Both the position numbers and the translations under genes were made by a program. Under the pieces are notes generated by a model. That model worked only from the letters and a program-made list of their open reading frames with translations, made no database searches and was not told the origin of the DNA. Below are positions 16,097-44,033 of a DNA stretch of 44,636 nt, piece by piece. Each line of letters begins with the position of its first letter. The first letter of the stretch is position 1. Origin of the DNA: Patescibacteria group bacterium (lineage in GTDB: Bacteria; Patescibacteriota; Microgenomatia; UBA1400; PJMF01); NCBI GenBank assembly GCA_018816385.1, contig JAHIVK010000054.1, positions 1 through 44,636 of the forward strand, written 5' to 3'.

Positions 16097-16215
16097 TTTG
16101 TCATCCTCGCGCCTTTTTGTCATCCTCGCGCCTTTTTGTCATCCTCGCGCCAGCGGGGATCCAGGGGCGCAGTTGTCAATCCTGGATTCCCCCCGCCTGG
16201 GCGAGGAGAATGACA
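16097..16215 (+). repeat. Family B REP-like bipartite palindrome preceded by 19-bp tandem copies of its left end
   Basis: (TTTGTCATCCTCGCGCC) x3, then ...AGCGGGGATCCAGG-spacer-CCTGGATTCCCCCCGCCTGGGCGAGGAGAATGACA. Confidence 0.9.
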
Positions 16216-16232
16216 ACTAACGAAAAAAGTCT

Positions 16233-27075: not shown

Positions 27076-27114
27076 AGACTTTATTAACTCGTTTTTTATT
27101 TCGCAGAAAGTCTA
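27076..27114. repeat. Family A truncated derivative upstream of the atp operon
   Basis: AGACTTT...TTAACTCGTTTTTTATTTCGCAGAAAGTCTA. Confidence 0.75.
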
Positions 27115-27176
27115 CTCAATTTAATAGTGACTGCTTCAATAACACACATTTTTAGTTAATTCAAAAAAACGGGTTG

Positions 27177-31188: not shown

Positions 31189-32151
31189 CTACTTGAGCAA
31201 TAATACTCTAATAACGGCTGCGATTTTATCGACAGTTAAGCCGTGTTTTTGATAGAGTTCTGCTGGAGTGCCGGACTCACCGAACTGGTCTTTGACCCCT
31301 AAAATTTGGAAGGGAATTTTAAGCTGATGTTGGCTGATGACCTCGGCCACCGCGCTACCCAAGCCTCCGATGACTTGGTGATCTTCCAGAGTGATCACAA
31401 CTTTGGCCACTTGGCAAATTTGGAGGATTGATGGCTGGTCCAGTGGCTTGAGCGTATGGCAGTTGACCACGCCAACTTTGAGACCTTGTTTGGACAGGGA
31501 TTGGGCAGTATCAATGGCTGTCTGAAGTAAATATCCATGAGCCAAGATAATAGCATCATTGCCGTAGATGACAGTTCTAGTTTTGCCAAGTTCAAAGGGT
31601 TGTTGAAATTTAATGATTGGAGTTTTGGGTTTGGTGACTCTCAAATAGGTTGGACCTGGGACGCTGGCTAAACTCAAGGTGGCTTGGTAGGCTTCGGCTC
31701 CATCGGCGGGCGAAACAACTGTCATGTGAGGTAAACTTCTCATTAAAGCAATATCTTCCAGCGCTTGATGAGTGGCGCCGTCTGGTCCGGTGGCTAAGCC
31801 AGCGTGTCCGCCAATAATTTTGACTGGTAAATTGGGCAGGCAAATGCTAGTCCGAATCACGCCCCAGTTTAAGCTAGGGCTAAATACTGCAAAACTGGCT
31901 ATAAAAGGTATTTTGCCGGCCATGGCCAGACCGGCGGCTAGACCGGCCAGGTGCTGTTCGGCCACACCTACCTCAAAAAAGCGATCTGGGAATGCTTGTT
32001 TGAACCAATCTACTCTGGTGGAACTGGCCAAATCAGCCGAAACTACCACCACATTGGGATTAGTTCTGCCCAGCTCCAATAGGGCTTGCCCCACTCCGTC
32101 TCTGGTTGACTGCAAATCTACCGGTGGTTTGGGTGGTAATTGATTATTCAT
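31189..32151 (-). CDS. Transketolase, C-terminal subunit
   Basis: SADLASST, VGVAEQ, GPDGATHQALED, LEDHQVIGGLG. Confidence 0.93.
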   Translation of the reverse strand: MNNQLPPKPPVDLQSTRDGVGQALLELGRTNPNVVVVSADLASSTRVDWFKQAFPDRFFEVGVAEQHLAGLAAGLAMAGKIPFIASFAVFSPSLNWGVIRTSICLPNLPVKIIGGHAGLATGPDGATHQALEDIALMRSLPHMTVVSPADGAEAYQATLSLASVPGPTYLRVTKPKTPIIKFQQPFELGKTRTVIYGNDAIILAHGYLLQTAIDTAQSLSKQGLKVGVVNCHTLKPLDQPSILQICQVAKVVITLEDHQVIGGLGSAVAEVISQHQLKIPFQILGVKDQFGESGTPAELYQKHGLTVDKIAAVIRVLLLK

Positions 32152-32195
32152 TTGTCATTGTGACTTTCCTTCCACGGGTTGGTTTTTTTATGACC

Positions 32196-32507
32196 ATCAT
32201 TTCTCTTCGCGCCTTGTCATTTTCCTCTCGCGTACTGTCATTCTCCTCGCGTAGCGGGGGGAATCCAGTGGTTGGTCTCATACTCCTGGATCCCCGCTGG
32301 CGTGAGGATGACAGACCCTCTGGATCCCCGCTGGCGCGAGGATGACAGACCCTCTGGATCCCCGCTGGCGCGAGGATGACAGACCCTCTGGATCCCCGCT
32401 GGCGCGAGGATGACAGACCATCTGGATCCCCGCTAGACCCCGCCCAAGCGGGGGGCGCGAGGATGACAGACCCTCTGGACCCCGCCCAGGCTGGGCGTGA
32501 GGATGAC
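32196..32507 (-). repeat. Family B element with tandem array of 34-bp units
   Basis: Four CTGGATCCCCGCTGGCG(C/T)GAGGATGACAGACC(C/A)T units from 32286, two variant units, the opposite arm at 32236 and degenerate arm copies from 32196. Confidence 0.92.
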
Positions 32508-33423
32508 CAGTGCCCGCGGGTTTATTTTGATGAACAGTCTGATTAAGTTCATCCAAAGCTTGTTTAGCCTCGGCTTGATTTGGGGCTCGCCCGTGCCAAT
32601 CGGGATTATTTTCCATAAACGACACGTCCTTGCCAGCCGTCGTGTGGCAGATAATGGCAGTTGGTAGGTGGCACGTGCGAGCCCCATTCAGAGCCCAACT
32701 AATTTGATCAAAATTATGGCCATCAATTTCTACCACTTGCCAATTGCAACTGGTAATTTTTTCGGCCAGTGGTTCCAAGGGGGCAATTTCCTGGGTGGTA
32801 CCATCAATTTGGATGTCATTGCGATCAATCAGAACAGTCAGGTGAGTTAAATGATGAGCGCCAGCGTAACGATAGGCTTCCCAGATTTGGCCTTCCTGAT
32901 GTTCCGCATCACTGGTTTGGACAAAAATGTGGTTGCTTTTGTGGTCTAGTTTGAAAGCTGTGGTCAGACCGCAACCCAAAGACAAACCCTGGCCCAGCAG
33001 ACCCGATGTATTCTCTACCCCCGGCAGTGAACCTTGGTGAGGGTGGCCTTGGAGACGTGAGCCAAACTGTCTTAAAGACCCAAGTTCCTCAAGGGGAAAG
33101 TAACCGGCTTGGGCTAACGTCGCATACCAAACCGGACAGACATGACCATTGGAGAGCAGAAAATAATCGCGCTCTGGCCAGTCCGGTTGATGAGGTCTCT
33201 GCTTGAGGACAGCAAAATAAAGACCAGTCATCACATCAGCCAATCCCAGCGACCCGCCAGGGTGGCCACTGCCGGCCCCAGCGATCATCTCGATCACGTG
33301 GCGCCTAATCTTTTGGGCGATAAAAGCTAACTCCGAGGGAGTTTTTGTTAAACTTGTCGCGAAATGAGGGAAATGATTAACCGGTTTCTTATTTCTGGGC
33401 ACATCTCTTGTCTGATCGGGCAT
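32278..33423 (-). CDS. Transketolase, N-terminal (TPP-binding) subunit with repeat-derived termini
   Basis: SGHPGGSL, LSNGH, LQGHP, GLLGQGL, SDAEHQEG...N, WHG; last ~75 aa read through the family B array. Confidence 0.9.
   Translation of the reverse strand: MPDQTRDVPRNKKPVNHFPHFATSLTKTPSELAFIAQKIRRHVIEMIAGAGSGHPGGSLGLADVMTGLYFAVLKQRPHQPDWPERDYFLLSNGHVCPVWYATLAQAGYFPLEELGSLRQFGSRLQGHPHQGSLPGVENTSGLLGQGLSLGCGLTTAFKLDHKSNHIFVQTSDAEHQEGQIWEAYRYAGAHHLTHLTVLIDRNDIQIDGTTQEIAPLEPLAEKITSCNWQVVEIDGHNFDQISWALNGARTCHLPTAIICHTTAGKDVSFMENNPDWHGRAPNQAEAKQALDELNQTVHQNKPAGTGHPHAQPGRGPEGLSSSRPPLGRGLAGIQMVCHPRASGDPEGLSSSRQRGSRGSVILAPAGIQRVCHPHASGDPGV
33349..33407 (-). repeat. Internally deleted family A element inside the transketolase CDS
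   Basis: TAAACTTGTCGCGAAATGAGGGAAATG matches the element end at 24/27 nt, followed by ATTAACCGGTTTCTTATTTC matching the other end. Confidence 0.8.
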
Positions 33424-33452
33424 TAAAGCTACTATATCAGTTACGCGTTTAA

Positions 33453-33618
33453 TAGACTTGTAGTGAAATAAGAAACGAGTTAATTATGGATAGATTTTAT
33501 AGTATTTTCGTTGTTTCTGATGCCGATAGTAGCCAGAGCTACTTGAGAAAGAAGAAACAAATGAAAATACATAAAAGATGTCATAAGTAGTCGTTGTGCT
33601 TATTTTGCTACAAGTTTA
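33453..33618 (+). mobile_element. Family A MITE-like element, full length
   Basis: TAGACTTGTAGTGAAATAAG ... CTTATTTTGCTACAAGTTTA. Confidence 0.88.
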
Positions 33619-33688
33619 ATAAACACCTAGTTTATGATACTTTTGATACAGACATCAGAACTCAGTCAGTTTATGATGAAAGGTATCT

Positions 33689-38219: not shown

Positions 38220-38393
38220 ATAATCATTTAATTCAAATTTTGATTAGTAATTGTGACTACTTAAAATCAACCACTACCTGTTTGCCGTTTTTTTCTGCAA
38301 TCTGATACAAAGTTTCCAGGGTGATATTCTGCCTATCTAGGGGTATAATGTGTGCCTCCACTGAATAATTTGTATATATTTTCAGTCTTGATC

Positions 38394-40208
38394 ATGAACA
38401 TCAGAAATATTGCTATTATCGCTCACGTGGATCATGGTAAAACTACCTTGATCGATGGCATGCTTAAACAAACTCACTTGTTTCGGGATAATCAGTCGGA
38501 GATGAGTCAGTCGACCATTCTTGACTCTGGGGATTTGGAGCGAGAAAAAGGCATCACCATCTTGGCCAAAAATACGGCCGTTTTATACAAAGATTACAAG
38601 ATAAATATTATCGATACCCCTGGTCACGCTGATTTTAGTGGCGAAGTTGAACGAGTCATTAATATGGCTGATGGAGCTTTGCTAGTCGTTGATTCGGCCG
38701 AAGGTCCCCTACCCCAAACTCGGTTTGTTCTGGAACAGGCCTTTAAAAATCACTTAAAGATGATTGTAGTGATTAACAAGATTGATAAAAAGTTAGCCGA
38801 ACCTCAAAAAGTCCTAGCTCAAACCGAAGAGTTGTTTGTGAGTTTGGCAGACGATGCAGAGCAACTTAATTTTCCGGTAGTCTATGCCTCGGGAATTGCC
38901 GGTAAAAGTTGGCTAGAGTTACCCAGTGATTTTAATCAGCCAGCTAACCTAGTGCCTCTGTTTGACACCATTTTGGATTTTATTCCCGCCCCTCAAGCCA
39001 ACGCCACCCTGCCTTTTAAAATGCAAGTGGCCAACATTGACTTTGATAGCTACAAAGGCACTTATGCCATCGGCAAAGTTTTACAAGGCACAGTTAAAAT
39101 CGCTGATCGATTGAATATTTGGACCGAAAATGAAAAAGTTGGCGATTGCAAAATTACTCATCTTTTTACCAGTAAAGGTTTAGAGCGGGTGGAAGTTGAT
39201 GAGGCTTATGCCGGAGATATTATTTTTTTGACTGGGATTGATGAAATCAAGATTGGTCAAACTTTGGCCGATCCAGTTTTGGTGGGTGGTTTACCGACTA
39301 TCCAAATTAGTGAGCCAACTCTCAAAATTCAGATTGCTCCCAATAGTTCCCCTTTTGCAGGTAGGGAGGGAGAGTTTGGCACAGTCCGTCAATTGGCAGA
39401 GCGCTTGAGACGGGAGAAAAAAACTAACATCGGCTTGAAAATTGAAGAACAATCGGGCGATAAAGGTTTTATTGTCTCGGGCAGAGGCGAACTACACTTA
39501 GCTGTTTTAATTGAAAGTATGCGACGGGAAGGCTATGAGATGGAAGTTTCTAAGCCTCAAGTTATCTATAAAGAAATTGATGGTCAGAAACATGAACCGG
39601 TTGAACAACTTAACATCAGAATTTTGCAAGAATATATGGGAGTGGTGACGGAAGAATTGGGTAAACGCTTAGGTTTGCTTCAAGAAAGTCTGACAGATGA
39701 TAAAGGCGTGGCCCACATGACATATCGGGTGAGTAGCAGAAACCTACTGGGTTTTAGGTCTTCAATATTGAGCAAAACCAGAGGCAACGGTTTATTTGAT
39801 GCTCAGTTTTTAGGTTACTTTCCAGTTCAATCAGCCAGTATGAAAAAAATTAGAAATGGCGTGTTGGTGGCCACCGAAACTGGTCAAACCACTGCCTATG
39901 CTTTAATTAGTTTGCAAGAAAGAGGTTTGCCGTTTATGGGTGTGGGTGAACAAGTTTATGCCGGCATGATTGTGGGTTTGGGCAAAACATATGAAGACAT
40001 TGATATGAATGCCTGCAAAGCCAAGAAGTTAACTAACTTTAGGTCAAATGCCGATATTGCCATTCCCCTCGATACACCCATGAGACTGAGTTTAGAACAG
40101 TCGTTGGATTTTATTGAAGATGATGAACTGCTGGAGTTGACTCCCATCAGTTTGCGTTTGAGAAAAAAGATTCTAGATAAGAATCAAAGATATAAAAGAC
40201 AAAATTAA
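38394..40208 (+). CDS. typA: Translational GTPase TypA/BipA
   Basis: IRNIAIIAHVDHGKTTL, EREKGITILAKN, DTPGHADF, GRGELHL, KKLTN.R; start ATG 38394. Confidence 0.97.
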   Translation: MNIRNIAIIAHVDHGKTTLIDGMLKQTHLFRDNQSEMSQSTILDSGDLEREKGITILAKNTAVLYKDYKINIIDTPGHADFSGEVERVINMADGALLVVDSAEGPLPQTRFVLEQAFKNHLKMIVVINKIDKKLAEPQKVLAQTEELFVSLADDAEQLNFPVVYASGIAGKSWLELPSDFNQPANLVPLFDTILDFIPAPQANATLPFKMQVANIDFDSYKGTYAIGKVLQGTVKIADRLNIWTENEKVGDCKITHLFTSKGLERVEVDEAYAGDIIFLTGIDEIKIGQTLADPVLVGGLPTIQISEPTLKIQIAPNSSPFAGREGEFGTVRQLAERLRREKKTNIGLKIEEQSGDKGFIVSGRGELHLAVLIESMRREGYEMEVSKPQVIYKEIDGQKHEPVEQLNIRILQEYMGVVTEELGKRLGLLQESLTDDKGVAHMTYRVSSRNLLGFRSSILSKTRGNGLFDAQFLGYFPVQSASMKKIRNGVLVATETGQTTAYALISLQERGLPFMGVGEQVYAGMIVGLGKTYEDIDMNACKAKKLTNFRSNADIAIPLDTPMRLSLEQSLDFIEDDELLELTPISLRLRKKILDKNQRYKRQN

Positions 40209-40229
40209 AATTTCAGTATGTCGGGCAAA

Positions 40230-40266
40230 CCATAATTAACTCGTTTCTTATTTCGCCACAAGTCTA
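40230..40266 (-). repeat. Family A half element
   Basis: CCATAATTAACTCGTTTCTTATTTCGCCACAAGTCTA; supplies the TAG of the 40264 gene. Confidence 0.85.
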
Positions 40267-41868
40267 ATTACTGATCAATCGATAAAGGGTAAAGTTGTTG
40301 GTTTGAAGAGTTTTTTCCAGGTTGGGATAGGCTTGAAACTGCGGGTAGCTGTTTTTGGCGACTACAATCCAGTCGATTTGGTTTTGATGCAAAAAATCCC
40401 CGGCTTCTGTTTGGCTCAATTGATGGAGGAAAAACCCCTCTTGTTTTGTTTTGGCTTCTTGACCCCGGGGGGTTTGGAGAGTATGTCCGTAAAAGACTGA
40501 CTGATGGGTGACTGATGGCAAATAATTAGCAACTTCATACGGTGCCAGGACTCCCCCACCCGAATCTTGATCAATGGTCGATATCACCTGTTGCAGATCT
40601 GCCGGTAAATAAACCCAAGGGTTATTTTGTGTTACTACATCTATTCTCATGGCAAAGACCAAGACCCGACTGGCAAGAAACAACATGACAAAGAAGATCA
40701 CGACCAATTTTTGAGTGACCTGATCGGTGATTGATTTGAGAGCTAGAAGTAGAATCACGGTTAATGGAAAAAACAGCCCCCTTAGAAAAAATCTGGCGAT
40801 GCCCAGGGGCAGGAGTGATAACACTAAACAGCTCACCACCCAAGTTATCAAGAATGGTAAGTGTCTCGATGTTATTTTTTTTCTTGGCAGGCAATACCAG
40901 ACTGCAAAAAACAAAATAAATACTCCGTAACCAAGTAATAATTGCTCAAGATTGGGTTTGGATAAGACTTGAGTTGCCACCGAGCTGAAACCTGTTTGTC
41001 TTAAGTGCCAGTAGTAGATGAGAGTAGCGATTGAGGTGGTGATCAGAATTGAGCCCCATCTCACCCAAAATGTTTTGAGAAGAACTGGCTTGTTTTTTAA
41101 CCCAAGATTTGCGGTTAATTGAGCCACTTTTGGTTTGGTTAATCCGGTAGGGCGCTCGTGTTTTAAAAAAGCCAGTAGGGGAAAAACCACCATCAGCAGT
41201 AACAGATAGTAGGGATAGAACAAGACGAGTCCCAGCCAACTGATGAGAGATGCCCAAAAGTGTTTGGGCAACCGAGAAACGTCAAGATACCAATACAAAT
41301 TAATCAGGCCGGAAAAGTAAAGCAGGATGCCCAGCGCCTCGTGGGGTCTCTGCAGAGCGCTTTGAAAAGTGAAAGAGGTGATGTAGAGATCGGCCGGCGC
41401 CAGGTTGGAAGAGGCCAGCCAGCCCAGTCCCCCGCCCAGACCGCAGATGGCTAGTCCCAGCAAACTGAGTGATTTTGAGTTGACAAACTGCTTCAACCAG
41501 GAATACAAGCAGACAAGCAGAACAGCGCCAGTGACGATGGCCGTTAGGTGAAAAACCAGACTGGTGGGCAGGGGCAAGACTAAACCCAACAGAGCGTAGA
41601 GGGGATAGAACAAACTGGGTGAGGATAAAATAGTTGTATAGCGATTGGCCAAGAGAAAGTGACCCATTTGGCCGTTTTTAATGGCGGCTAAATAAACGTT
41701 CACATCCCAGGGATCAAACCAGGAGGCTTGGCCGGTGTAGAGCCTGTCGGTTGGAGTTTTGATCCAGGCGTAGAGGTTGGGTAACTGCTGGCTGACAATG
41801 ATCAATAAAATCACCAGCACCAGAGGAAGGTGAATTGATCGAAGCCGAATCATGATCTGTTTGAGCAT
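40264..41868 (-). CDS. Polytopic membrane protein, possibly GT-C fold glycosyltransferase
   Basis: Many TM segments, acidic DPWD motif in the first external loop, soluble C-terminal domain. Confidence 0.6.
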   Translation of the reverse strand: MLKQIMIRLRSIHLPLVLVILLIIVSQQLPNLYAWIKTPTDRLYTGQASWFDPWDVNVYLAAIKNGQMGHFLLANRYTTILSSPSLFYPLYALLGLVLPLPTSLVFHLTAIVTGAVLLVCLYSWLKQFVNSKSLSLLGLAICGLGGGLGWLASSNLAPADLYITSFTFQSALQRPHEALGILLYFSGLINLYWYLDVSRLPKHFWASLISWLGLVLFYPYYLLLLMVVFPLLAFLKHERPTGLTKPKVAQLTANLGLKNKPVLLKTFWVRWGSILITTSIATLIYYWHLRQTGFSSVATQVLSKPNLEQLLLGYGVFILFFAVWYCLPRKKITSRHLPFLITWVVSCLVLSLLPLGIARFFLRGLFFPLTVILLLALKSITDQVTQKLVVIFFVMLFLASRVLVFAMRIDVVTQNNPWVYLPADLQQVISTIDQDSGGGVLAPYEVANYLPSVTHQSVFYGHTLQTPRGQEAKTKQEGFFLHQLSQTEAGDFLHQNQIDWIVVAKNSYPQFQAYPNLEKTLQTNNFTLYRLISN

Positions 41869-41905: not shown

Positions 41906-41933
41906 TAGACTTTCTTATTTCGCAGAAAGTCTA
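41906..41933. repeat. 28-bp collapsed family A element
   Basis: TAGACTTTCTTATTTCGCAGAAAGTCTA. Confidence 0.8.
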
Positions 41934-41966
41934 CAGTCTGTTACTTTTTGAAAATAGGTATATTAT

Positions 41967-44000: not shown

Positions 44001-44033
44001 GACTTAACTCGTTTCTTATTTCATAGAAAGTCT
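44001..44033. repeat. Family A half element abutting family B
   Basis: GACTTAACTCGTTTCTTATTTCATAGAAAGTCT. Confidence 0.75.

What the first reader, a model, noticed from the sequence alone, without database searches (positions are those of the whole stretch)
33349..33407. Family A element domesticated in-frame as the N-terminus of transketolase
Seen: a 59-bp two-ended remnant (57 bp net of a TA, i.e. 19 codons) lies inside the CDS and encodes RDVPRNKKPVNHFPHFATSL; free copies translate as ..HCPYFATSL. Substitutions in the remnant avoid stop codons. The ATG at 33423 has a -10 box 7 nt upstream, and no later ATG precedes the conserved domain. Established: in-frame palindromic insertions creating new peptide are known from Rickettsia palindromic elements. 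Inference: the same process operates here, and this one enzyme has both termini made from two different selfish repeats.
Basis: partly seen in the sequence, partly recalled or inferred. Interest (0 to 1): 0.75.

Follow-up and report, generated by a model that had tools for sequence, protein, structure and literature searches.

The report
Mobile-element remnant translated inside transketolase start
A decayed 57-base copy of this tiny groundwater bacterium's most abundant hairpin-shaped mobile element sits in frame just after the start codon of its only transketolase gene, adding about 20 probably harmless amino acids, as is known from the palindromic elements of Rickettsia.

Summary
Window 33350-33406 (minus strand) is a diverged 57-nt, two-ended, internally deleted copy of "family A". 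Family A is a 163-164-bp hairpin MITE with about 171 loci in this 1.0-Mb Patescibacteria-like genome.

- A profile of free short copies aligns to the remnant end to end (E 3.3e-6, whole genome).
- The closest orthologue (78% aa identity, syntenic contig L021) is an empty site. One 60-nt gap lies after codon 5, and the ATG and a TGATATAGT -10-like box are conserved on both sides.
- The family makes 3-bp A-N-T target duplications, not TA. So 57 + 3 = 60 nt = 20 codons, not 19.
- None of 119 homologues has the peptide. None of 99 orthologous loci holds family A.
- DNA contigs from three studies carry the insertion unchanged.
- The only canonical in-frame starts before the conserved helix are ATG 33423 and GTG 33402, so the remnant is almost certainly translated.

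"Domesticated" is not shown. AlphaFold2 gives coil there, and the hairpin has decayed (-4 versus -22 to -35 kcal/mol).

The C-terminal repeat tail is real, but its frame depends on an unresolved 34-bp repeat count.

This is a new member of a known kind (RPE-like). The scan has noted similar cases in other CPR genomes.

The parts
33350..33406 (-). Remnant proper: a 57-nt, two-ended, internally deleted family A copy. It is translated as most of residues 6-25 of the transketolase N-subunit.
   Evidence: Short-form profile hit 33349-33406(-), E 3.3e-6. Same architecture as free copy C42:3102-3163. Lies within the single 60-nt gap relative to L021.
33407..33409 (-). Left flank AAG, a degenerate copy of the 3-bp target duplication.
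   Evidence: The family makes 3-bp A-N-T duplications. Here the flanks are AAG and AAC, so 2 of 3 positions are shared (read).
33347..33349 (-). Right flank AAC, a degenerate copy of the 3-bp target duplication.
   Evidence: As for the left flank.
33421..33423 (-). ATG start codon of TK-N. It is ancestral: ATG CCC is conserved in the empty-site orthologue.
   Evidence: DNA alignment with L021. It is the first start after an in-frame stop.
33431..33439 (-). TGATATAGT, an extended -10-like box ending 7 nt before the ATG. It is identical in L021. This suggests a leaderless or very short-leader mRNA (inference).
   Evidence: The simple two-hexamer scan did not call it.
33400..33402 (-). GTG (codon 8), the only other canonical in-frame start before the conserved domain. 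It lies inside the remnant.
33454..33617 (+). Full-length (164-nt) family A copy with AAT duplications at 33451-33453 and 33618-33620. It sits in the divergent promoter region 31 nt upstream of the ATG and is absent from L021.
32278..33423 (-). Transketolase N-terminal subunit ORF as assembled here (381 aa). The conserved fold spans residues ~29-300.
   Evidence: Pfam PF00456 at residues 35-289, E 9.6e-54. PDB 6yak split-chain TK, E 4.9e-73. AF2 model.
32165..32517 (-). Family B (GC-rich palindromic) repeat block, including a 34-nt tandem array at 32286-32455. It lies between the ancestral 3' end of TK-N and the TK-C start. It displaces the stop and is read as the C-terminal tail. Block boundaries are approximate.
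31189..32151 (-). Transketolase C-terminal subunit gene. In L021 its ATG overlaps the TK-N stop (ATGA).

Best explanation
A short, internally deleted copy (57 nt) of family A inserted into an A-N-T-like site after codon 5 of the transketolase N-subunit gene. Family A is a hairpin-forming, non-coding mobile element of the MITE kind with 3-bp target duplication. Element plus duplication is 60 nt and the copy was open in that frame, so the gene stayed intact. It now encodes 20 extra residues (about R6-L25) in the unstructured leader that precedes helix 1. Translation still starts at the ancestral ATG 33423, behind a conserved -10-like box. Since insertion the copy has decayed to 70-80% identity to free copies, mainly in its left arm. 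As a result the strong hairpin that free copies form is gone from the mRNA's initiation region. The peptide is most likely a tolerated passenger, not a part with a function of its own.

Shown: the insertion, its origin, the retained frame, and its presence in independent data sets.
Inferred: translation from ATG 33423, neutrality, and selection against the hairpin.
For: Origin of the remnant.
- The short-form profile aligns to the remnant end to end, E 3.3e-6 genome-wide.
- It has the same 57-nt architecture as free copy C42:3102-3163.
- Family A has 171 merged loci. There are 184 non-overlapping hits: 41 full, 75 left-end only, 63 right-end only, 5 internal.
- Two-ended short forms of 49-80 nt are common.

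Insertion event.
- L021 holds the 78%-identical orthologue in the same gene order, with no family A at E<=0.1.
- L021 differs from the window by one 60-column gap right after codon 5. The ATG CCC and the TGATATAGT box are conserved upstream.
- The 3-bp duplication (26 of 47 copies) makes 57+3 = 60.

Orthologue comparison.
- The three closest orthologues have 17 residues before KIRR/NVRL; the window has 37.
- 118 homologues have a median of 30 residues before the [STG]GH motif (quartiles 28-32); the window has 51.
- Columns opposite residues 7-21 are filled in 0-2 of 50 aligned homologues.
- 0 of 119 homologues share the peptide words tested.
- 0 family A hits at E<=0.01 in 99 orthologous loci, 609,197 nt. 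These include genomes that carry family-A-like elements elsewhere.

Not an assembly artefact.
- DNA contigs of three studies span 32390/32776 to 33494-33495 with 0-1 differences, and no joint skips the remnant.

Translation start.
- The only canonical in-frame starts before the domain are ATG 33423 and GTG 33402. The next (GTG 33297, ATG 33288) would delete the invariant R40.

Gene intact.
- Pfam and PDB matches are full length. AF2 pLDDT is >90 for 237 residues. It is the only TK-N found in a 97.5%-complete genome.

Insert outside the fold.
- Residues 1-28 are coil with pLDDT 54-56; helix 1 is residues 29-50.

Hairpin lost.
- The remnant RNA folds at -4.1 kcal/mol (z +1.05; 167 of 200 shuffles fold at least as well). 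Nine free short copies fold at -22.0 to -35.1 kcal/mol.
Against: - There is no protein-level evidence. Translation through the remnant is inferred from the lack of any other usable start.
- The two flanking triplets are AAG and AAC. They are not identical and neither fits A-N-T.
- The left arm matches only about 23 of 32 positions. The full-length profile did not report it.
- The only RNA-library contig over the site (33298-33495, identical sequence) runs 72 nt upstream of the ATG. That does not fit a transcript starting at the ATG. The gene body has no RNA-contig cover, and such contigs may be DNA carry-over.
- The two-hexamer promoter scan found nothing on this strand.
- No autonomous element with family A ends was found: PF13358 no match; PF01609 and PF13586 matches are not flanked by family A.
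- Hairpin loss may be plain decay rather than selection.
Confidence: 0.85

Rival explanations
1. Translation starts at GTG 33402, inside the remnant. The N-terminus would then be element-derived from its first residue, and the ancestral MPDQT would be lost.
For: GTG 33402 is the only other canonical in-frame start before the domain. A purine-rich AAGAGA lies just upstream of it.
Against: The ATG CCC and the -10-like box 7 nt upstream are conserved with the empty-site orthologue. The purine run sits only 1 nt from the GTG, too close for a usual ribosome-binding site (general knowledge).
Confidence: 0.07
2. The peptide is domesticated: the element-derived 20 residues have acquired a function (targeting, regulation, subunit contact) and are kept by selection.
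For: The frame is open and the insertion is identical in contigs from three studies. The right arm is well kept, 24 of 27 positions against the consensus (my count).
Against: - The peptide is predicted coil with low confidence, outside the fold.
- No orthologue has it, so no conservation can be shown.
- The near-identical contigs show no divergence from which selection could be read.
- Open copies exist among free elements.
Confidence: 0.08
3. The gene is dead or dying: two repeat insertions (5' family A, 3' family B) have made a pseudogene, or translation starts downstream at a rare codon (ATC 33321, ATT 33309).
For: In this assembly the ORF ends 126 nt before TK-C, so the ancestral ATGA overlap is lost. 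RNA contigs do not cover the gene body.
Against: - About 300 codons are intact, with all 38 invariant columns kept.
- The AF2 model is confident.
- It is the only TK-N in the genome and TK-C is intact.
- ATC or ATT starts would cut into helix 1.
- The P0001 assembly restores the overlap with TK-C.
Confidence: 0.04
4. Chance resemblance: an AT-rich N-terminal extension that merely looks like family A.
For: The left arm is weak, the full-length profile misses it, and the flanks are not a clean duplication.
Against: - Genome-wide E 3.3e-6 for an end-to-end match.
- An exact 60-nt indel at the expected size of 57+3.
- The same breakpoints as a free copy.
- The peptide is colinear with other copies' reading (IDLxRNKKRVN...HCPYFATSL).
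Confidence: 0.01

Closest known systems
Rickettsia palindromic elements (RPEs). Ogata et al. 2000 and 2002 were not read; I saw them only as summarised in passages of review PMC10969869.
   Same: A small palindromic repeat inserted in frame in a housekeeping enzyme gene. It adds a peptide without breaking the fold, and the same family also lies between genes.
   Different: - The host is a Patescibacteria-like groundwater bacterium, not Rickettsia.
- No sequence relation to RPEs was tested.
- Here I found only one clearly intragenic copy among 171 loci. [quoted passage not shown]
- The insert is at the extreme N-terminus, and its hairpin has decayed.
Intragenic prokaryotic MITEs in general: ERIC, BOX, Coxiella QMITE1 and Anabaena MITEs, as listed in the review passage. 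For PMC5896051 I saw only the search listing and the start of the abstract.
   Same: Non-autonomous elements with inverted ends whose ORF-compatible copies make translational fusions with host genes.
   Different: A different family and host phylum. In the library searched, 3 papers hold both 'candidate phyla radiation' and 'miniature inverted'. The 2 listed are on other subjects by title.
Correia elements of Neisseria (recalled, no call).
   Same: An abundant ~100-170-bp hairpin MITE, often next to gene starts, with internally deleted short forms.
   Different: Correia elements duplicate TA (recalled). Family A duplicates 3-bp A-N-T.
Split-chain transketolase, N-terminal component (PDB 6yak).
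   Same: Query residues 32-294 align to chain residues 37-300, E 4.9e-73. The partner C-subunit gene lies next door.
   Different: The window protein carries 20 extra N-terminal residues and a repeat-derived C-terminal tail.

Membership tests
Prokaryotic MITE (family A as a whole) | Small size, no coding capacity of its own | tested here: met
   Full copies are 163-164 nt and short forms 49-80 nt.
Prokaryotic MITE (family A as a whole) | Terminal inverted repeats | tested here: met
   About 20-nt complementary ends. Free copies fold into about 20-bp stems.
Prokaryotic MITE (family A as a whole) | Target-site duplication | tested here: met
   The 3-nt flanks are identical in 26 of 47 two-ended copies, with target A-N-T.
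Prokaryotic MITE (family A as a whole) | Many dispersed copies | tested here: met
   171 merged loci in 1.0 Mb, many at contig ends.
Prokaryotic MITE (family A as a whole) | Autonomous insertion sequence with the same ends | tested here: not met
   PF13358 gave no match. The PF01609 and PF13586 matches (C54, C27, C36, C66) are not flanked by family A ends. The assembly is 97.5% complete in 77 contigs, so a partner may simply be unassembled.
   The 3-bp A-N-T duplication fits. But no IS5-type transposase with these ends was found, and the family rule is recalled, not checked.
RPE-like in-frame coding insertion (how it works) | The insert length keeps the frame and the insert has no stop codon | tested here: met
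   A 60-nt gap relative to the empty site; the ORF is open.
RPE-like in-frame coding insertion (how it works) | Orthologues lack the insert (an empty site exists) | tested here: met
RPE-like in-frame coding insertion (how it works) | The insert lies at a surface or unstructured place compatible with the fold | tested here: met
   AF2: residues 1-28 are coil and helix 1 starts at residue 29. This is a prediction only.
Rickettsia palindromic elements (membership) | Sequence belongs to one of the RPE families of Rickettsia | not tested
   No RPE sequences were at hand. The host is a different phylum, so membership is not claimed.
Domesticated (exapted) element-derived peptide | Purifying selection on, or a demonstrated function of, the derived peptide | not testable with these tools
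   Only one lineage carries it. The contigs from three studies are near identical.
Split transketolase N-subunit | Transketolase_N domain with an adjacent pyrimidine-binding/C-terminal subunit gene | tested here: met
   PF00456 E 9.6e-54; the next gene has PF02779 and PF02780; PDB 6yak.

The most novel reading that the evidence does not exclude
In this streamlined genome two repeat families have remodelled both ends of the single, probably essential transketolase without killing it.

- At the 5' end, selection erased a hairpin of about -29 kcal/mol that the insertion placed 15 nt behind the start codon of a probably leaderless mRNA. It did so mainly by mutating one arm.
- At the 3' end, the true population form is the in-frame one (P0001-like). 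There, about 100 repeat-encoded residues are read through and the ancestral stop/start overlap with the C-subunit gene is kept.
- Family A ends also donate N-termini or start codons to other genes (for example the membrane protein at C28:18324).

On this reading, these elements would be a regular source of new protein termini in CPR bacteria.
Probability: 0.25. Interest if true: 0.55.

Novelty: new member of a known kind. Interest (0 to 1): 0.33.

Why it matters
This is a clean case, documented by an empty site, of a mobile element being absorbed into the coding sequence of a core metabolic enzyme in an ultra-small Patescibacteria-like bacterium. It has exact arithmetic (57-nt element + 3-bp duplication = 20 codons). 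It also shows visible decay of the element's hairpin next to the start codon.

It adds to signs that RPE-like 'coding palindromes' are not confined to Rickettsia. Earlier notes of this scan, unchecked by me, list similar cases in other CPR genomes.

It also matters for annotation:
- Start-codon and length calls for such genes are right even though they look over-extended.
- Repeat-derived tails can be assembly-dependent.

By itself it changes no concept.

Tried and rejected
- **Full-length profile.** It found only the right arm. I had to build a short-form profile.
- **Survey for other intragenic copies.** With at least 30 codons on both sides, only C28:2714-2801 passed, and it looks like an upstream region. 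The 14 'N-side' loci mostly have a start codon just after the element, so the element lies in the leader.
- **First DNA alignment with L021.** The L021 piece was too short and the alignment was wrong. It was redone.
- **Promoter scan.** No two-hexamer promoter on the gene's strand.
- **Rfam at gathering thresholds over the whole window.** Only a tRNA; families A and B match nothing.
- **Search for an autonomous partner.** None found with family A ends.
- **RNA evidence.** Only Logan contigs were available, so no start, strand or level can be read. The gene body has no RNA-contig cover, which proves nothing.
- **Resolving the 34-nt repeat count.** DNA contigs break at 32315/32333 and resume at 32390.
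- **Literature on MITEs in CPR.** 'Patescibacteria' + 'MITE' returned papers on arthropod mites. 'Candidate phyla radiation' + 'miniature inverted' returned 3 papers, of which 2 were listed, both on other subjects by title.
- **TA duplication.** I considered it (as in IS630 or Correia elements) and rejected it on the flank counts.
- **Stop-codon table.** My fuzzy pattern mis-anchored two rows (C77, C12) and the remnant row itself. Those rows are not counted.

Full report
**Setting.** The window is contig C14 of a 999,501-nt, 77-contig genome (97.5% complete, GC 41.5%). Its protein relatives carry names such as Woesebacteria, Pacebacteria, Uhrbacteria and Patescibacteria group. Public runs holding this DNA are labelled groundwater metagenomes.

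On the minus strand lie a split transketolase and its neighbours:
- TK-N is ORF 32278..33423, 381 aa. Pfam Transketolase_N matches residues 35-289, E 9.6e-54.
- TK-C is ORF 31189..32151, with Transket_pyr and Transketolase_C domains.
- A BadF/BcrAD-type ATPase gene diverges from 33689.
- The closest solved structure is the N-terminal component of a split-chain transketolase, 6yak. Query residues 32-294 align at E 4.9e-73.

**Family A.**
- A blastn search with the copy at 33430-33640 gave 193 HSPs at E<=1e-3 in the genome, many at contig ends.
- 31 near-full copies align over their whole length.
- A profile of them gives 184 non-overlapping hits at E<=0.01: 41 full, 75 left-end only, 63 right-end only and 5 internal. 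These merge into 171 loci.
- The element proper runs from AGACTTGT to ACAAGTCT and is 163-164 nt long.
- Its ends are complementary over about 20 nt, and the arms co-vary between copies.
- Of 53 two-ended copies, my pattern located the termini in 47. In 26 of those the three bases on either side are identical. The left triplet is A-N-T in 38 of the 44 rows that had a left flank: AAT 23, AGT 5, ATT 5, ACT 5. The family therefore duplicates a 3-bp A-N-T target, not TA.
- Internally deleted two-ended short forms of 49, 51, 56-59, 66, 75 and 80 nt are common. As RNA they fold into near-perfect stems of about 20 bp: -22.0 to -35.1 kcal/mol for nine copies.
- No Rfam family matches at gathering thresholds.
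- No transposase gene flanked by family A ends was found.
- Elements 66-74% identical over their full length occur in 5 of 40 relatives searched, all 5 among the 24 genomes of the same taxonomic family.

**The observation.**
- The stretch exists as described.
- On the mRNA strand the remnant reads as a left end, then directly a right end. It ends in CAT TTC CCT CAT TTC GCG ACA AGT TTA, which translates HFPHFATSL. Free copies read HCPYFATSL there.
- The full-length profile reports only this right arm: 33349-33379, E 9.5e-4 in the window.
- A profile of four free 66-nt copies aligns to 33349-33406 over positions 4-70 of 72. E = 3.3e-6, 27.1 bits, against the whole genome.
- In a multiple alignment with 15 free short forms, the remnant has the same length and internal breakpoints as the free 57-nt copy C42:3102-3163. 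It is 57-73% identical to the individual copies including flanks.
- By my count it matches the 66-nt consensus at 47 of 59 positions: right arm 24 of 27, left arm 23 of 32.

**The empty site.**
- The best non-self homologue, P0002 (78% identity), lies on metagenome contig locus L021.
- L021 is syntenic with the window, including the divergent ATPase gene, TK-N and TK-C. It has no family A match at E<=0.1.
- A pairwise DNA alignment of the two start regions has 79% mean column identity and exactly one gap. The gap is 60 columns long, placed opposite window 33351-33410; its placement is free by a few bases.
- The ATG CCC start and the TGATATAGT box are conserved upstream, and homology resumes immediately downstream.
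- 57 nt of element plus a 3-bp duplication is 60 nt, or 20 codons.
- The present flanks are AAG (33409-33407) and AAC (33349-33347). Two of three positions are shared and neither fits A-N-T, which I read as age.

**At protein level.**
- The three closest orthologues have 17 residues before KIRR/NVRL (P0002 counted from its internal Met). The window has 37.
- MAFFT gives those three one 20-column gap.
- Among 118 homologues with the [STG]GH motif, the median distance from the N-terminus is 30 residues (quartiles 28-32), against 51 in the window. Only 2 of the 118 are longer, P0018 and P0027.
- None of the 119 other proteins contains FATSL, NKKPVN, RNKK or HFPHF.
- The columns opposite residues 7-21 are filled in 0-2 of 50 aligned homologues.
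- Neither family A profile hits any of the 99 orthologous loci (L002-L100, 609,197 nt) at E<=0.01. This includes loci from genomes that hold family-A-like elements elsewhere.

**Is it real DNA?**
- Logan contigs of three DNA runs from three studies span the remnant and the ATG. X2 covers 32390-33494 with 1 difference. X3 covers 32390-33495 with 0. X6 covers 32776-33494 with 0.
- No joint skips the remnant. One of these runs may be the source sample.
- A contig from a metatranscriptome library covers 33298-33495 without a difference. Contigs cannot show strand, ends or level, DNA carry-over is possible, and the gene body has no RNA-contig cover. I take no conclusion on expression from it. I note only that it reaches 72 nt upstream of the ATG.

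**Where does translation start?**
- In frame, the only ATG/GTG/TTG codons before the conserved domain are ATG 33423 (codon 1) and GTG 33402 (codon 8, inside the remnant).
- The next are GTG 33297 (codon 43) and ATG 33288 (codon 46), which would delete the invariant R40. The rare starts ATC 33321 and ATT 33309 would cut into helix 1.
- An in-frame stop lies 20 codons upstream of the ATG.
- TATAGT ends 7 nt before the ATG and is preceded by TG-A. The whole TGATATAGT box and the spacing are identical in L021.
- From general knowledge, this is the layout of an extended -10 promoter making a leaderless or near-leaderless mRNA. That is inference. The simple two-hexamer scan found nothing on this strand.
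- Either way the remnant is read as protein.

**What the insert does to the protein and the message.**
- AlphaFold2 with a 51-sequence alignment gives mean pLDDT 81.
- Residues 1-28 have no secondary structure: pLDDT block means are 56 for residues 1-10, 54 for 11-20 and 77 for 21-30. The first helix is residues 29-50.
- The core is mostly above 90, and residues 321-381 are below 50.
- So the 20 residues extend an already unstructured leader.
- The remnant RNA folds at only -4.1 kcal/mol (z +1.05; 167 of 200 shuffles fold at least as well). An intact copy of the same length, C42, folds at -29.4 kcal/mol.
- Most substitutions are in the first 12 nt of the left arm.
- A strong stem 15 nt behind a start codon would be expected to hinder initiation, so selection against it is plausible. 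Plain decay would look the same.

**On 'stop avoidance'.**
- In the frame used by TK-N, 4 of 16 free short copies are open (C44, C73, C45, C61).
- 10 carry a stop: TAG in the GTAG-type arm, or TGA in the ATGAG/GTGAG type.
- 2 rows were mis-anchored by my pattern.
- The remnant has sense codons at both of those places. An open parent copy explains this as well as later repair does.

**The other end.**
- In L021 the TK-N stop overlaps the TK-C start (ATGA).
- In the window, homology to L021 stops after ...CAA AAT AAA CCC at about 32518 and resumes near the TK-C start.
- In between lie about 350 nt of GC-rich palindromic family B repeats. These include a 34-nt tandem array at 32286-32455. A blastn search with the free family B copy at 16130-16225 gives 50 HSPs genome-wide.
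- There is no stop before the repeats, so the ORF reads into them whatever the repeat count.
- P0001, the same protein from another assembly, is 100% identical over residues 1-357. It then continues in another frame to a TAA that overlaps the TK-C ATG. The difference is 68 nt, two 34-nt units.
- Short-read contigs break inside the array.
- The tail is therefore real, but its length and frame are unresolved. The P0001 form would keep the ancestral coupling to TK-C.

**Comparison with the known.**
- The review PMC10969869 (passages read) states that intragenic MITEs not rarely make in-frame fusions. It says RPEs of Rickettsia do so at unusually high frequency, and cites Ogata et al. 2000 and 2002, which I did not read.
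- The present case works like an RPE insertion. Membership in the RPE families was not tested and is not claimed.
- In the paper library I found nothing on MITEs of CPR/Patescibacteria.
- Earlier notes of this scan (unchecked AI notes) describe family A ends next to start codons elsewhere in this genome (e1-3301896). They also describe in-frame palindromic repeats in housekeeping genes of other Patescibacteria genomes. The kind has therefore been seen before in this scan on other DNA.

**Verdict.** The RPE-like mechanism is supported. 'Domestication' and the 'both termini' flourish are not established. This is a new member of a known kind, of modest interest.

Noticed in passing
window 32286-32455, and P0001: The 34-nt tandem array of family B differs by two units (68 nt) between this assembly and the one behind P0001. 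That shifts the TK-N tail frame. The shorter form reads to a TAA overlapping the TK-C ATG, keeping the ancestral gene overlap.
   Followed up: partly
G000 C28:18324-18383: A right-end fragment of family A reads MKMLFKDAISNHCPYFVTSLI, in frame with a 549-codon membrane-protein ORF (ILLLALLLRLPQLTGSFWLDEA...). No ATG/GTG/TTG follows it closely, so the element may donate the start codon and the first ~21 residues.
   Followed up: partly
window 33454-33617: A full 164-nt family A copy with AAT duplications sits in the divergent promoter region between the ATPase gene and TK-N, 31 nt upstream of the TK-N ATG. It is absent from the orthologous spacer in L021.
   Followed up: yes
Family A copies genome-wide (alignment): The two terminal arms co-vary between copies (GTCGCG/CGCGAC, GTAGTG/GCTAC-type, TTCTGCG/CGCAGAA, CTTCTTTCG/CGAAAGAAG). 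Pairing of the ends is therefore maintained, not just their sequence.
   Followed up: no
window 40228-40267, 27077-27115, 44002-44033, 41910-41934: Solo ~25-40-nt family A left ends lie at gene ends, for example between the convergent typA-like gene (38352-40208) and the membrane-protein gene (40264-41868).
   Followed up: no
window 33473/33584 (read laying joint): All four runs, including the RNA library, hold a contig that joins 33473 to 33584 with TTCG in between. This is a short hairpin form of family A, presumably from another locus.
   Followed up: no
G000 C54:525-1091: A DDE_Tnp_1 (IS4/IS5-type) transposase frame of 311 codons lies on a 2.1-kb contig. It is not flanked by family A ends.
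   Followed up: partly
P0002 / L021:4001-4037: The database start of the closest orthologue (MLITLATDIVNLMPLQ...) looks over-extended by 12 codons. Its upstream ATG lies before the conserved -10-like box, and the internal ATG CCC matches the window's start.
   Followed up: partly
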